Below are positions 1,270 through 62,307 of a stretch of 64,000 nt of DNA, one piece after another (position 1 is the first letter of the stretch; each line of letters begins with the position of its first letter). The notes under the pieces were generated by a model, which was not told where the DNA came from, searched no databases, and was given only the letters and a program-made list of their open reading frames with translations. The DNA is taken from contig OX597831.1 in NCBI GenBank assembly GCA_951406725.2, positions 31,806,001-31,870,000 of the forward strand, given 5' to 3'. The DNA is from Octopus vulgaris (taxonomy: Eukaryota). The position numbers were made by a program, and so were the translations under genes.

Positions 1270-1357
1270 ATGCAGCTGAAGATTGCTCTGCATTTAAATT
1301 GATGTAATGATTGCATTGCTCAATTAAATGGAGTTGCTTGCAACGATCGTGCTGCAT
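1270..1357 (+). ncRNA. Decayed type I hammerhead with long stem II
   Basis: ATGCAG/CTGCAT stem I, CTGAAGA, imperfect long stem II (CATTTAAATTGA/TCAATTAAATG), palindromic ACGATCGT stem III. However GAAA reads GCAA and the triplet is GUG. Confidence 0.5.
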
Positions 1358-1689
1358 TACCTCTGGATATCCTTGTTGCTTATTTTGATTTTAATCACCT
1401 TATTTTGAAATTGTATGGATAATACCGTACTAAATTCTGGTGCCTCAACTTAAGTACCATATTCATCTGAATCTAAATTTTTACACACACACACACACAC
1501 ACACACACACACATATATATATATATATATATATATATACATACATACATACATACATATGTTTGCACATATATATGTACATATATATATATATACATAT
1601 ATATGTATATAATATATACATATACATCTATATGTACATAAATATATATATATATATATATATATATATATATATATATATATATAAAA

Positions 1690-2107
1690 AAATTCTACGA
1701 AATTTTTTGCCACCCTATATTGATTAATTATGAATTTTCTGGTTAATTCCGTAATGGAATCGGCGGCTTATATTTGCTGCCGATAAATTTGGCGCGAGTG
1801 TGATGATTTGAAAATTTTAGGTCAGATATTGCCGAGACAGAGATAGAAGTGCCTCGTGCAAATATCTGCTCCGATCTGGCTGTTCTTACTGACGAATCTA
1901 TCGGTCTATGGAAGACTAGCTTGATTTAATTTAATCAGGTTAGTTTACCATTAAACAATAGATGAAACGGTGCATCGTATAAGGAACTACAGGGTAAATG
2001 TTTTTTTAATTTTCTCCTGGTTTGCGGAATTAATGTTGTTTTGCGGTTGAAGCTTTAGCTGTTATTTCTAGTGGGTGAATGGCCTATTATGGCCGTTCCT
2101 TGATTTT
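1690..2107 (+). mobile_element. Non-coding hammerhead-bearing insert (Penelope-like pLTR or retrozyme-type) between duplicated microsatellite blocks
   Basis: Contains the 1883-1985 hammerhead and is flanked by two near-identical compound microsatellite blocks 590 bp apart. Confidence 0.5.
1883..1985 (+). ncRNA. Type I hammerhead ribozyme with extended stem II (intact core)
   Basis: Stem I TTCTTA(1883-88)/TAAGGA(1980-85); CTGACGA (1889-95); stem II closed by ATCTAT(1896-1901)/ATAGAT(1958-63), with inner helix AGACTAGCTTGATT/AATCAGGTTAGTTT; GAAA (1964-67); near-palindromic stem III CGGTGCATCG; GUA triplet with predicted cleavage after 1979. Confidence 0.8.
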
Positions 2108-2828
2108 GATATATATATATATATATATACATACATACATACATACATATGTTTGCACATATATATGTACATATATATATATATACATATATATGTATAT
2201 AATATATACATATACATCTATATGTACATAAATATATATATATATATATATATATACATATATATATATATGCATATATACATACATATATGTACGTACC
2301 TACATCTACATGTATATATACTTGCATATATGGGTACAGGACACCAAAAAAACGTCGAACACAATGAGAAACGAAAACATAAACACAAAACCAAGGAACT
2401 GGACATTTTTCTTAAACAACGAAAAAATAGAGTACAGGACAAATAACATAAGGAAAATTCCCCTTCTTCAGTCACCATGGTTTCATCTACTCCGCGTTTC
2501 GAAGGTGAAGGCGAGACGCAACTTCAGCTGAAACATTCCTTCCCGCGAAAAGCAAATTAAATAAAATTTGAGATTTTTCTGCGGAGGGGTAAAAATGGTA
2601 ACAAAAACAGGACAGTAACGACAGTACAAAATATAAACAGTAAAAGACAGGACAAGGAGAATAACAGTAACACAGACAAGAAGGGTTGTTAAGCCAAACG
2701 AGATAAAATATTACGAACGCTATTTTTGAGAACGGCAATGGAGCCACAGAAAATGCCGTCTACACTCGGGTGAAGCAAGTCTTCATCAGCTGCATTTACC
2801 TAGACAAAATTTCAAATGTTGCCACATC

Positions 2829-3285
2829 AATTTCAGTACACACATGAAGATATATATATATATATATATATATATATATATATATATATATATATACATA
2901 CATACATACATACATACATACATACATACATATATATATATATATATATATATATATATATATATATATATATATATATAGGAATAAAAAATGGAGTTAA
3001 CGCAGGTTTAAACAAGTATTTTTTCTTTCTACATATGTTTCAAAAATTCCACTGATACTTATTCAAAAGAATAAAAGGTATAAACAATGCAATCTTCTCT
3101 TCGGGAAAGTGAAAAAACGAAACTTGTCTATACGACATTTTAGCAAAAAATGATGGATTCGTATTGCGATAGACAGAACGCTATTAATATTGTTTATCCG
3201 TGTTAATTGTTAACAAGGTAAAATACACTCATCTATATATATATATATATATATATATATATATATATATATATATATATATACA
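2829..3285. repeat. (AT)n/(ATAC)n microsatellite cluster
   Basis: Direct reading. Confidence 0.9.
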
Positions 3286-3359
3286 AGTAATAGAAATGAA
3301 ATATATATATACATAGTGAAAGTATTAATATTTTCACAATTAAAACTGAAAGTATTATC

Positions 3360-3658
3360 TCACATTACAATAGAGGTTTTTGTTTCACTTTTGACACGTA
3401 TTACTGAAATAGAGTGAGAGATAAGATATTGCTCCAGGCTTGCATTAGGCAAGGATCTGAAAATTCTTTTGGCCCATGACGCTGCATGGACCCTAAGTAA
3501 GGCATGTGTAAAATTTGAATGAAATCGGTTGAGTAAGTTCTTTAGTTTTAGTGATGCACGCAGACAGACAGACAGACAGACAGACACACACACACACACA
3601 CACACACACACACACGCACACACGCACGCACACATTCTCAGTTGTATACATATAGATG
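3360..3658 (+). mobile_element. DINE-1/Helentron-associated-like non-autonomous element
   Basis: AAATTTGAATGAAATCGGTTGAGTA core followed by a (CAGA)n(CA)n microsatellite and a TATAGAT end; architecture recalled from Helentron-associated elements. Confidence 0.5.
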
Positions 3659-59384: not shown

Positions 59385-59640
59385 TAGTGGTTCTCAGCCG
59401 GAGTCCCCATGGCCCTTAGGAGAGTCTAGATAAGATTTTGTTGTTAAAATTTATCTGCAATAAATTGGTTATACTTGTGTAATACACGAAATGTTTTAAT
59501 TTTTTTTATACAATTTCTAATAATATTTAATGTTAAAAGTATAACAGGAATTTTTGTAAACATGGAATGGCTAGGAAGGGCCATTTGAGTGAAATAGGAA
59601 TCAAAGGGTTCCATAGGGAACAAAATGGGTGAGAAACATA
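59385..59640 (-). mobile_element. Decayed hAT-like MITE, same family as 51025-51280
   Basis: AGTGGTTCTCAGCC start and GGGTTCCATAG...TGAGAAACA end; resembles the reverse complement of the 51 kb copy. Confidence 0.5.
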
Positions 59641-60669
59641 TATAAACCACATATATCATGTATTATTTTTCCAGTTTACTTTATGAAAACACGCACACAC
59701 ACACACACACACACACACACACACACACACATTATGATCATCACATTAATGTCTGTTTTTCTATGGGTCAGACAGAATTTGTTGAAGTAGATTTTCTATG
59801 GTCCAATGCTCGTTCTGTTGCCAACCCTCACCTGTTTCCACGTAAGGTAACTTTTGCCCATGGTCACACATGTTTTCACAGAAGGTGAGAAAATGAAGGG
59901 CTCTGCTTGTATGATGGTGATATTCGTTAACAACTATCACATGATGTGAAGACAAAGAAACACAAACACAGATACATATTCACACAACAGGCTTCTTTCA
60001 GTTTCCATCTATGAAATCCATTGACAAGGCCTCGGCTGGTCTGGAATTATAGTAGTAGACATTTGCCCAGGGTGTCATGCAGTGGAGTTGAACACAAAAC
60101 TATGTGGCTGAGAAGAAAACTTCTTACCACACATCTACATCTGCACACACACACACACACACACCATCAGTTAATGTCTGATTACCATGCTGGCATGGGA
60201 TAGATGGTTTGACAGGAGCTGGTAAGGCTGGGCACTGCACCAGGGTCTGTTGTCTGTCCTGGCATGGTTTCTATGACTGGATGCCCTTCCTAATGCCAAC
60301 CACTTTACAGACTGTACTCGGTGCTTTTTACATGGCACCAGCATCAACACATGCACACAAAAGGAAATTGCAGTGTTTTTGCTTTTATACATTGTCCCCT
60401 TAGCTTCTAGTCTTTGGGAAGCTGTCAATGATCGCAGGACCAGTCTCTGAACAGATACAATTTGGGCACCAGTGTATCTTCCAGGTAGCTGTAGAAACTT
60501 CCAAATCAATCATATAGATTTTATCACTATAATCAGCAAAGCTTTTGGATCAAGAAAGAACCAGCTAGGAAGAAACTTATAATGACCATCCAAGTTTTCC
60601 CAGAGTTGTGTGGTTTGTTATCATCATCTTTGAGGCCCATCAAGAGCCTCTCCTGAGCCAATGAATCAT

Positions 60670-60905
60670 TCATCATCATCATCGTTTAACGTCTGATTTC
60701 CATGCCGGCATGGGTTGGACAGTTTGACTGAGGATTGGCAAGCCGGGAGGCTACACCAGACTCCAATCTGATCTGGCAAGTTTTCTACAGCTGGATGCCC
60801 TTCCTAATGCTAACCACTCTAAGAATGTAGTGGGTGCTTTTAATGTGCCACCAGCATGGGAGCCAGTCAGGTGGCACTGGCATGAATGGTGCTTTTTACA
60901 TGCCA
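60670..60905 (-). mobile_element. 3' UTR fragment of the same RTE family
   Basis: Same tail and CTACAGCTGGATGCCCTTCCTAATGC motif. Confidence 0.8.
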
Positions 60906-61400
60906 TTGAAATAAAATATATCTCAAGGCACACACAAAGACATAAAGAATAGCATGCTATTGTCTATAGCTTTATGTGTGTGCTTTAAGATATGCTATAC
61001 CAAAAAAACAAGAATTATTTTTTAATTCTCTCGAAAGTAAAATTATGGCATCAAGGCTTATTCTTTACAGGTGCTAGTGCCACATAAAATGCATTTGTGC
61101 CAGTGCTGAGTAAACGCACCCATGCCAGTGGCACACAAGAAGCACCCAGTGCCTCTGTAAAGTGGTTGACATTGTGAAGGGCATCCAGTCATAGAAACCA
61201 TGCCACAACAGACATTTGGAGTTTGGACAGCTTCCTGGCTGGATCAACCAAAGAAAGCCTTGTGGGTGGATTTGTTAGACAAACTGAAAGAACAGAAGTA
61301 ATACATTTCTAAATCTCTCAGAGAGATTTATGCAGTAGTAGCATGATAAAGTGATAGTATGTTGTCAACTTAATGTGACAGTCCCATGAAAAGGAAGAAT

Positions 61401-62135
61401 CATCATCATCTTCATCATTATTGTTTAACGTCCGCTTTCCATGCTGGCATGGGTTGGACAGTTTGACTGAGGACTGGCGAGTCAGATGGCTGCACCAGGC
61501 TCCAATCTGATCTGGCAGAGTTTCTACAGCTGGATACTCTTCCTAACGCCAACCACTCTGAGAGTGTAGTGGATGCTTTTACACACCACCAGCACAAGGG
61601 CCAGTCTAGCAGAATTGGCAACAACCTCGTTCGAATGTTGTTTTTCACGTGTCACCAGCACAAGTGCCAGTAAGGTGACGCTGATAACAATCACACACGA
61701 ATGGTGCTTTTTACGTGCCACAGGCAACGATCATGCTCGGATGGTGCTCTTAGTGTTCCACTAGCATGGATGCAAGTCATGCGGTGCTGTCATTGGCCAC
61801 ATCAGTGAATTTGATTTCGATTTCACTTGCCTCAACAGGTCTTCGCAAGCAGAGTTTAGTGTCCAATGAAAGAAAGGTACGCATAAGTGGGCTGGTTACA
61901 CCCACTGGCATAGGCCATGGTTTATGGTCTCACTTGACTTGTCGGGTCTTCTCAAGAACAGCATATTTCCAAAGGTCTTGGTCACTAGTTATTGCCTTGG
62001 TGAGGCCTAATATTTGAAGGTCGTGTTTCACCACCTCATCCCAGGTATTTCTGGGTCTACCTCTTCCACAGGTTCTCTCAACTGCTAGGGTGAGACACTT
62101 TTTTACACAGCTATCCTCATCCATTCTCACCACAT
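61401..62135 (-). mobile_element. 3' end of an RTE LINE (ORF C-terminus, long 3' UTR, (GAT)n tail)
   Basis: ORF 61930-62133 reads VRMDEDSCVKKC...GRGRPRNTWDEVVKHDL. The same 3' UTR recurs without the ORF at about 40320-40500, 41874-42215, 49050-49250, 56420-56640, 60165-60345 and 60670-60905. Confidence 0.88.
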
Positions 62136-62262
62136 GCTACTGTTGGACATTACACATTTCCTATGTCCTTATATTTCTATTTTCAAAAATCAGTGAATGC
62201 ATTTCACTTGAAATATATGTTTACAAAGACAGATAGGCATCAACAGCTAGCAAGCCATGCTA

Positions 62263-62307
62263 CTCCAGACTGATGATGAGCAATGACTCTGAAACTCGAC
62301 TCTGAAG
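62263..62307 (+). ncRNA. Decayed minimal hammerhead-like motif
   Basis: CTCCAGA-CTGATGA-TGAGCAATGACTCT-GAAAC-TC-GAC-TCTGAAG. Stem I has one mismatch and the conserved U before the cleavage site reads A. Confidence 0.4.

What the first reader, a model, noticed from the sequence alone, without database searches (positions are those of the whole stretch)
1270..62307. Five hammerhead-like motifs in one window, most in short non-coding inserts: a candidate ribozyme-bearing retroelement system
Seen: motifs at 1270-1357 (+), 1883-1985 (+), 48729-48795 (-, partial), 54756-54800 (+) and 62263-62307 (+). Their sequences look unrelated but the architecture is shared, in long-stem-II and short-stem-II classes. 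Three have a non-canonical first stem II pair (A.G at 54.7 kb, U.U at 62.3 kb, A.A at 48.7 kb). Four lie between long direct or inverted repeats and none has an adjacent ORF. Inference: several families of non-autonomous Penelope-dependent elements or retrozymes are abundant in this genome and may make small circular or self-cleaved RNAs.
Basis: partly seen in the sequence, partly recalled or inferred. Interest (0 to 1): 0.8.

Follow-up and report, generated by a model that had tools for sequence, protein, structure and literature searches.

The report
Hammerheads from Penelope ends and retrozymes
The five motifs are copies of five common repeats whose typical copies carry a complete self-cutting RNA (hammerhead) motif; one is the cut-off tail of a protein-coding Penelope-like jumping gene, a second likely is too, and three are small non-coding units likely pasted by the same kind of enzyme, all of kinds already described.

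Summary
All five motifs exist. Each belongs to a high-copy repeat family whose typical copy has a full type I hammerhead core and a palindromic or near-palindromic helix III. Only the copy at 1883-1985 is intact here; the other four are mutated and cannot be told from chance by a descriptor alone. They are not all non-autonomous. Motif 1 is the 3' end of a Hydra-clade Penelope-like element (PLE) with an untranslated tail of about 2.7 kb. Motif 3 is probably a sister element. Motifs 2, 4 and 5 are closed 485-, 350-353- and about 340-nt non-coding units (non-LTR retrozymes). Their insertions have two fixed 3' ends away from the cleavage site and often back-to-back arms, the PLE footprint. A sixth, missed hammerhead (3030-3104, minus) is the end of a young Hydra-type PLE. 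The odd first stem II pairs are family traits with a published precedent. No partner PLE was found for motifs 2, 4 or 5, and cleavage and RNA circles are untested. This scan has already reported the 485-nt family and the long/short-end rule on other DNA of this genome. New members of known kinds.

The parts
1155..1480 (+). Family F1: 3' end of a 5'-truncated Hydra-clade Penelope-like element whose ORF ends about 2.7 kb upstream of the hammerhead in longer copies
1270..1357 (+). Motif 1: type I hammerhead, 57-nt stem II insert, decayed in this copy (GAAA and cleavage doublet changed)
1519..1693 (.). TA-rich repeat duplicated at 2109-2283 (175 nt, 97%) around the F2 copy; probable target duplication (inference)
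   Evidence: (D9)
1686..2108 (+). Family F2: 423 nt of a closed 485-nt non-coding unit, ending at the family's short 3' end in a TA run
1883..1985 (+). Motif 2: intact type I hammerhead, 68-nt stem II insert, 10-nt helix III, UA cleavage doublet at 1978-1979
2978..3240 (-).
3030..3104 (-). Sixth hammerhead core, passes the descriptor, with a C-C start of the core (U4C variant)
48676..48905 (-). Family F3 main arm: 3' end of a long element (over 2.3 kb upstream in other copies), probably a sister Hydra-clade PLE
48721..48795 (-). Motif 3: hammerhead core with A.A first stem II pair; helix III closing pair broken in this copy
48906..49049 (+). Inverted arm of the F3 insertion, internally deleted, holding the 3' half of the core
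54616..55025 (+). Family F4: one 353-nt non-coding unit plus a 54-nt terminal repeat, running from the family's short end to its long end
54756..54800 (+). Motif 4: short-stem hammerhead, A.G first pair, one stem II pair lost in this copy
61280..61292 (+). 13-bp target duplication of the F5 insertion (second copy at 62470-62482)
61291..61400 (-). Family F5 inverted arm from the long end; resumes at 62140-62169 after a later insertion
62172..62469 (+). Family F5 main arm (about 340-nt non-coding unit), ending at the short end
62263..62307 (+). Motif 5: short-stem hammerhead, U.U first pair, U16.1 lost in this copy

Best explanation
The five motifs are independent insertions of five high-copy hammerhead-bearing repeat families, likely all written into the genome by Penelope-like (PLE) reverse transcriptase-endonucleases: motif 1 is the cut-off 3' end of a protein-coding Hydra-clade PLE, motif 3 likely the same, and motifs 2, 4 and 5 are small closed non-coding units (non-LTR retrozymes). 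Shown: family membership, cores and stems, ORF linkage of F1 and F6, head-to-tail closure of F2, F4 and F5, two fixed 3' ends and back-to-back arms. Inferred: the PLE protein nicks both DNA strands and starts reverse transcription at two set internal sites of the RNA, as shown in vitro for a lizard PLE, which gives one long and one short arm with random 5' truncation. For F2, F4 and F5 the template is a multimer or a circle, since arms run through the cleavage site and past one unit. The hammerhead would cut multimers into monomers, probably as a dimer through the palindromic helix III. After insertion copies decay, so four of the five here are probably dead.
For: Families: 1167-2788 first-look candidates each (not copy numbers); exact core patterns 299 (F2), 301 (F1), 397 (F4+F5), reversed controls 0. 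Cores complete in 12-20 of 20 copies. F1: upstream walking reaches RT and GIY-YIG remnants (profile E 1e-35 and 1e-23 in L304, 6e-16 in L299) with CxCX5C, CxxC and CxH; the same UTR start follows the ORF in L299 and L304 and recurs in L300; the UTR runs to the hammerhead in L301; L299 has the F1 end as its inverted arm. F6: Hydra-type ORF directly upstream in 18 of 25 loci. F2: arrays of 485-486-nt units, up to seven in a row. Arm ends: F2 13 short and 11 long of 26; F4 13 and 12 of 33; F5 18 and 13 of 31. Inverted arms in 8 of 17, 11 of 17 and 11 of 20 loci, one short plus one long in 7 of 8, 9 of 11 and 11 of 11. The autonomous Hydra- and Neptune-type families show two ends as well. Circular folds of genomic monomers z -6.7 (F2) and -5.6 (F4), 30 shuffles. 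Two RT start sites and both-strand extension: PMC11167929 (passages).
Against: No autonomous partner was found for F2, F4 or F5: their 3' regions do not align with those of four Hydra-type families or with one further hammerhead element tested (z below 3). No fetched locus carries ORF, UTR and hammerhead of F1 on one arm; the link is by overlap. For F3 the ORF evidence is weak (profile E 0.001 in L342, a short C-terminal likeness seen by eye in L341). The 1.5-kb flank test gave 0 of 20 for F1 although F1 is ORF-linked, so absence of a nearby ORF proves little; the case for F2, F4 and F5 rests on closure, and only 4 of 20 F5 loci have an arm longer than one unit. In the lizard PLE, hammerhead cleavage was not needed for insertion in vitro, and 8 of 9 frog retrozyme dimers did not cleave. 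Copies examined were the best matches to the window, so they are biased to long, little-diverged ones.
Confidence: 0.82

Rival explanations
1. Same elements, but no RNA circle and no working ribozyme step: F2, F4 and F5 are copied from linear read-through transcripts of tandem arrays, and the hammerhead is a passenger inherited from PLE ends. This rival concerns the template only.
For: Arm ends avoid the cleavage site. Hammerhead cleavage was dispensable for insertion of a lizard PLE in vitro and no RNA ends were seen at its site (PMC11167929 passages). No canonical core was seen in 1.5 kb of 3' flank of 30 Neptune-type copies. 8 of 9 frog retrozyme dimers were inactive.
Against: At least 16 sequence clusters keep core, stems and a palindromic helix III on unrelated sequence, which points to selection at the RNA stage. 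Coral, mussel and axolotl retrozymes do form circles (PMC7229834 parts 2 and 4).
Confidence: 0.35
2. All five are short non-autonomous elements or retrozymes.
For: No ORF in the window; same-strand PLE ORF within 1.5 kb upstream in 0 of 20 loci for F1 and for F3.
Against: F1 and F3 do not close head to tail, have unique upstream sequence of over 2 kb, and F1 leads into a Hydra ORF. Among the first 100 exact F1 core matches none is a short same-strand tandem, unlike F2.
Confidence: 0.07
3. The motifs are chance matches, or satellite units spread by unequal crossing-over without retrotransposition.
For: With two faults allowed, shuffles give as many hits as the window. Rfam finds no hammerhead.
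Against: Family majorities have complete cores where the window copies are broken; copies are dispersed over many contigs with fixed 3' ends, inverted arms and, for motif 5, a 13-bp target duplication.
Confidence: 0.03
4. The five motifs form one local system, for example a cluster of ribozymes kept to process a host transcript.
For: Six cores lie in 64 kb, three within 2 kb.
Against: Five separate families of different age and on both strands; four copies are broken; other hammerhead types turn up incidentally in fetched flanks; the 1.2-3.2 kb cluster sits in TA runs, the target of these elements.
Confidence: 0.03

Closest known systems
Metazoan non-LTR retrozymes (Cervera and de la Pena 2020, PMC7229834; Li, Clavereau and Pollet 2026, 10.64898/2026.07.22.740005)
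   Same: F2, F4, F5: non-coding units of 340-485 nt, G+C under 45%, one type I hammerhead per unit, monomers to multimers, well-folded predicted circle. F5 matches axolotl HHR_Amex2 in its U.U mismatch at the base of helix II and a unit of about 350 nt.
   Different: F2 has a 68-nt stem II insert and a 10-nt helix III. The insertions show two fixed ends and back-to-back arms, which I did not see described for retrozymes in the parts read. No homologous PLE terminal repeat was found, whereas 24 of 57 frog families matched known elements, nearly all PLEs. Expression and circles are not shown here.
Hydra clade of C-terminal EN+ Penelope-like elements (Craig et al. 2021, PMC8557442; includes Hydra-1_Obim, File S1)
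   Same: F1 parent, F6 and a 717-aa family: RT followed by GIY-YIG, hammerhead in the 3' end, 5' truncation, inverted arms, (TA)n flanks. CxCX5C, CxxC and CxH in the F1 parent; these and RWK and DKT in the 717-aa protein.
   Different: Published Hydra elements are generally under 3 kb; the F1 element has an untranslated 3' part of about 2.7 kb with diverged internal repeats of about 830 nt. Stem II inserts are 55-57 nt. F6 and the 717-aa family have a U4C core; CxCX5C was not seen in the F6 protein.
PLE minimal hammerheads (Cervera and de la Pena 2014, PMC4209133)
   Same: Short palindromic helix III suited to dimers; an extra base between positions 9 and 10.1 ahead of a G-C pair (F4, F5); many sequence families per genome, mostly as single truncated copies or opposite-strand pairs 100-700 bp apart.
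   Different: F4 and F5 also have an extra base on the 3' side, which gives the 1x1 mismatch, and an extended stem I with an internal loop; F1, F2 and F3 have much longer helix II.
Anolis Poseidon PLE PAc (Frangieh et al. 2024, PMC11167929)
   Same: Two internal RT start sites that define the 'tail'; cleavage and extension of both strands; AT-rich targets.
   Different: The tail in published PLEs is 30-40 bp; here the two ends lie about 55 nt (F4, F5), 90-110 nt (F2) and up to about 250 nt (F3) apart, and they occur on non-coding units.

Membership tests
Type I hammerhead ribozyme | Core CUGANGA, GAAA, UH with helices I-III (family level) | tested here: met
   Core complete in 16, 20, 12, 16, 18 of 20 copies of F1-F5; all tested stems paired in 10, 19, 3, 9, 11
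Type I hammerhead ribozyme | Core and stems intact in the five window copies | tested here: not met
   Met only by motif 2; motifs 1, 3, 4, 5 each carry faults
Type I hammerhead ribozyme | Match to an Rfam hammerhead model | tested here: not met
   No hammerhead family among 103 matches up to E 1; long helix II or short helix III may be the cause (inference)
Type I hammerhead ribozyme | Self-cleavage | not testable with these tools
   Needs a transcription assay
Non-LTR retrozyme (F2, F4, F5) | Short non-coding unit in head-to-tail copies, one type I hammerhead per unit | tested here: met
   F2 485-486 nt, arrays of five and seven; F4 350-353 nt trimer; F5 closure in 4 of 20 loci, but no F5 array with two whole hammerheads was seen among those 20
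Non-LTR retrozyme (F2, F4, F5) | No protein, no LTR structure, low G+C | tested here: met
   Units close on themselves without an ORF; G+C 0.38 and 0.39 for F2 and F4; PBS and PPT were not searched
Non-LTR retrozyme (F2, F4, F5) | Expressed as linear and circular monomer RNAs | not testable with these tools
   Only assembled contigs of runs not on record as RNA were available
Non-LTR retrozyme (F2, F4, F5) | Homology to the terminal repeat of an autonomous PLE (Li et al. 2026; found for a minority of families) | tested here: inconclusive
   None among the few PLE families sampled; most PLE families of this genome were not sampled
Non-LTR retrozyme (F1, F3) | Short closed unit | tested here: not met
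   Unique upstream sequence of over 2 kb, no head-to-tail closure seen
Hydra-clade PLE (F1 parent) | [quoted passage not shown] | tested here: met
   L304 and L299 match a profile of two intact Hydra-type proteins of this genome at E 1e-35, 1e-23, 6e-16; frames are broken
Hydra-clade PLE (F1 parent) | CxCX5C linker, CxxC and CxH motifs | tested here: met
   Read by eye in the L304 translation against the list in PMC8557442 section 11
Hydra-clade PLE (F1 parent) | N-terminal RWK and DKT motifs | tested here: inconclusive
   No fetched F1 copy reaches that far; both are present in the 717-aa family, DKT in the F6 protein
Hydra-clade PLE (F1 parent) | Hammerhead in the 3' repeat and insertion into (TA)n | tested here: met
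   most F1 3' ends printed abut TA runs (not counted)
Hydra-clade PLE (F1 parent) | Placement in the Hydra clade of an RT tree | not tested
   No named reference proteins were fetched
Hydra-clade PLE (F3 parent) | Linked RT-EN ORF | tested here: inconclusive
   Profile E 0.001 in L342 next to an inverted F3 end; short C-terminal likeness in L341; shares its 3' terminus (32 of 36) and part of stem II with F1

The most novel reading that the evidence does not exclude
F2, F4 and F5 are not worn-down PLE ends but independent RNA circles that parasitise PLE enzymes through shape alone: the enzyme starts at two fixed internal sites of one circle from both cut DNA strands. F4 and F5 use a PLE partner with a non-TA target that has not been found, and the mismatch at the base of stem II keeps monomer circles from cutting themselves.
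Probability: 0.25. Interest if true: 0.65.

Novelty: new member of a known kind. Interest (0 to 1): 0.3.

Why it matters
PLE mobilisation of animal retrozymes has been argued mainly from shared hammerheads, co-occurrence and terminal-repeat likeness. Here three retrozyme families show the same two-ended, back-to-back insertion footprint as intact PLEs of the same genome, and young intact Hydra-type proteins are at hand, so the hypothesis can be tested in vitro. It also warns annotators that a lone hammerhead with no ORF within 1.5 kb can still be the end of an autonomous PLE with a long 3' tail. Both classes of element are described, and this scan has reported the 485-nt family and the footprint before, so the gain is incremental.

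Tried and rejected
Rfam scan: no hammerhead match. Descriptor with two faults: no better than shuffles. The PLE ORFs first seen near F1 (L046/L109), F2 (L022) and F5 (L095) copies belong to neighbouring insertions with their own 3' ends. Two same-strand F5 pairs 1.6 and 2.8 kb apart and two single F4 loci held no PLE ORF. The 1.5-kb flank test missed the F1 ORF; only walking found it. Walking on F3 reached over 2.3 kb and gave only weak ORF remnants. Partner search by 3'-end alignment was negative for F2, F4 and F5; the region labelled 'Nep' turned out to be a separate hammerhead element flanking a Neptune-type copy, not its end. Pfam matched only RVT_1 in the Neptune-type protein and nothing in the other five proteins. 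The C-C core hit at 29575-29621 lies inside an ORF remnant that looks transposase-like (recalled likeness; no Pfam match) and is treated as chance. Expression: no RNA holder listed; contigs of runs guessed to be RNA cover F2 and F4 and include head-to-tail and opposite-strand joints, but these forms exist in the genome and contigs show no ends, strand or level, so they are not used as evidence. Literature searches: 'hammerhead ribozyme' with 'octopus' gave 5 papers, none on such elements by title or abstract start; an octopus repeat annotation (PMC13282606, term search) has no occurrence of hammerhead, ribozyme or retrozyme in its main text. The supplements of the bioRxiv preprint were not seen and only File S1 of PMC8557442 was held, so long-stem Hydra hammerheads or these families may be listed in files I did not see.

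
Full report
Setting. The window is G000:C18:31806001-31870000 of a 2.8-Gb animal genome. It is likely an octopus, from the recalled look of its repeats and from earlier scan notes; I did not test this. All five motifs are present.

Are they more than chance? A strict type I descriptor finds only 1883-1985; 1 of 60 shuffles gave a hit at comparable stringency. Freeing the first stem II pair and allowing a C-C core adds a sixth motif at 3030-3104 on the minus strand (2 observed, shuffle mean 0.03, 0 of 40). 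Allowing two faults gives 5-10 hits against 4.2-7.8 in shuffles. Rfam reports no hammerhead among 103 matches. As single sequences, then, only motif 2 and the missed sixth pass.

Family evidence. Each motif is a copy of a dispersed family (first-look candidates 2602, 1167, 1217, 2788, 2601; these are not copy numbers). I aligned the 20 best copies of each, window copy included. The core is complete in 16, 20, 12, 16 and 18 of 20, and all tested stems pair in 10, 19, 3, 9 and 11. Helix III is palindromic in F1, F3, F4 and F5 and nearly so in F2. The window copies of motifs 1 and 5 have lost core bases, motif 3 the closing pair of helix III, and motif 4 one of three stem II pairs. The odd first stem II pair is a family trait: U.U in F1 (16 of 16) and F5 (18 of 18), A.A in F3 (12 of 12), A.G in F4 (14 of 16); relatives with a standard A-U pair occur among the 397 exact F4/F5 matches. 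In F4 and F5 it reads as the known extra base before a G10.1-C11.1 pair (PMC4209133, parts 1-2 of 4) plus one extra base on the other side, and axolotl HHR_Amex2 has the same U.U (PMC7229834, passages). The families are not all unrelated: F4 and F5 align at 68% over 250 nt, and F1 and F3 share part of stem II (81% over 42 nt) and 32 of 36 bases of the 3' terminus.

Class one: closed non-coding units. F2 is a 485-486-nt unit found in arrays of up to seven among the first 100 of 299 exact core matches. F4 is 350-353 nt with a trimer on C27. F5 is about 340 nt and runs head to tail past one unit in 4 of 20 loci. Genomic F2 and F4 monomers folded as circles score z -6.7 and -5.6 against 30 shuffles. 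After dropping three overlapping loci each for F2 and F4, arm ends fall in two classes counted from the core: F2 216-238 (13) and 323-326 (11) of 26; F4 191-207 (13) and 246-260 (12) of 33; F5 193-199 (18) and 249-264 (13) of 31. The predicted cleavage sites are at 91, 33 and 31, so the end classes are far from them and arms read through them. Inverted partner arms occur in 8 of 17, 11 of 17 and 11 of 20 loci, one short plus one long in 7 of 8, 9 of 11 and 11 of 11. F2 ends abut TA runs (25 of 26, the other a mapping artefact); F4 and F5 ends mostly do not. In the window, motif 5 is such a twin-armed insertion, from 61293 to 62469 with a 13-bp target duplication and a later insert in its inverted arm.

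Class two: ends of long elements. F1 and F3 do not close; longer copies share unique upstream sequence. Walking on F1 passed through about 2.7 kb of non-coding DNA with diverged repeats of about 830 nt and reached a broken ORF. L304 and L299 match a profile of two intact PLE proteins of this genome at E 1e-35, 1e-23 and 6e-16 and show the RT aspartate pair, CxCX5C, CxxC and CxH, features listed for the Hydra clade (PMC8557442, section 11). The ORF end is followed by the same UTR start in L299 and L304, the UTR runs to the hammerhead in L301, and L299 carries the F1 end as its inverted arm; no single arm fetched holds all three. F3 extends over 2.3 kb upstream; L342 joins an inverted F3 end to a weak Hydra-like remnant (E 0.001) and L341 starts with a short likeness to the Hydra C-terminus. 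F3 is therefore probable, not shown. The sixth motif is the end of a young family with a Hydra-type ORF directly upstream in 18 of 25 loci. It and a 717-aa Hydra family have a U4C core, a variant known from a viroid (PMC3088659, passages). The same flank test gave 0 of 20 for F1, F2, F3 and F4 and 1 of 20 for F5 (a neighbouring element), so it cannot by itself show non-autonomy.

Mechanism. A lizard PLE protein cleaves and extends both strands and starts at two internal RNA sites that bound the genomic tail (PMC11167929, passages). The young Hydra- and Neptune-type families here also show two ends. I infer that such an enzyme wrote all six insertions. For F2, F4 and F5 the template was a multimer or a circle; the genome cannot tell which. 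The hammerhead likely cuts multimers to monomers, as in coral, mussel and axolotl retrozymes (PMC7229834, parts 2 and 4 of 6), but it was not needed for insertion in the lizard assay and 8 of 9 frog dimers did not cleave (10.64898/2026.07.22.740005, parts 1-3 of 5). No partner was identified: F2, F4 and F5 3' regions do not align with the PLE ends sampled.

Is the window special? A descriptor scan of all 1.42 Mb of fetched loci gave 95 distinct hits in 16 clusters, 10 of them outside the clusters that hold F1-F6; in the 5 of those with a 6-nt helix III the inner pair, which the descriptor did not ask for, is complementary. The loci were chosen for these families, so this is no density estimate, but hammerhead families are clearly many and six cores in 64 kb need no local explanation.

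Verdict. Both classes are known. Earlier notes of this scan describe the 485-nt family, long-armed Hydra hammerheads and the long/short-end rule elsewhere in this genome; sequence look-ups for F1 and F4 returned nothing. I saw the two F2 ends before reading those notes. Interest 0.3; new member of a known kind.

Noticed in passing
window 2978-3240 (-): Sixth hammerhead with a U4C core, the 3' end of a young Hydra-type PLE; the window copy is 217 nt of the end plus a short inverted arm.
   Followed up: yes
window about 2330-2810 (-): A repeat also seen in L015 and L025, with a possible degenerate hammerhead near 2430-2540 and another core start near 2790.
   Followed up: no
L114, L171-L173 (e.g. 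G000:C11:8423000-8429000): Young 717-aa Hydra-type PLE, about 99% identical in the 150 best matches, many open frames, U4C hammerhead with a bulged base before GAAA, and a K in the RT motif before the two aspartates.
   Followed up: partly
L174-L176 (e.g. G000:C18:59020500-59030400): Young Neptune-like PLE (776-846 aa; clade assigned from a recalled linker motif) with a 3' tail of about 2.2 kb rich in microsatellite-like sequence, two ends about 40 nt apart, and no canonical hammerhead seen.
   Followed up: partly
L252, L267, L301: The F1 element's 3' untranslated part holds diverged internal repeats of about 830 and 610 nt, unusually long for a Hydra-clade PLE.
   Followed up: partly
L118, L180, L184, L249, L175, L339, L056, L234, L305, L111: Ten or more further hammerhead types with palindromic or near-palindromic helix III, several with non-standard first stem II pairs.
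   Followed up: no
window 18174-18396: Near-perfect G+C-rich hairpin of about 220 nt with an AT-rich centre.
   Followed up: no
window 8241-8419 and 8761-8939: Inverted repeats of 179 nt (96%) around 341 nt; looks like a small DNA transposon derivative.
   Followed up: no
window 22901-23314, 29355-29768, 45659-46069: Short ORF remnants that look like a LINE end, a transposase and an integrase (recalled likeness; no Pfam match).
   Followed up: partly
window 48676-49049: Both arms of the motif 3 insertion stop at the short end, an exception to the one-long, one-short pattern.
   Followed up: no
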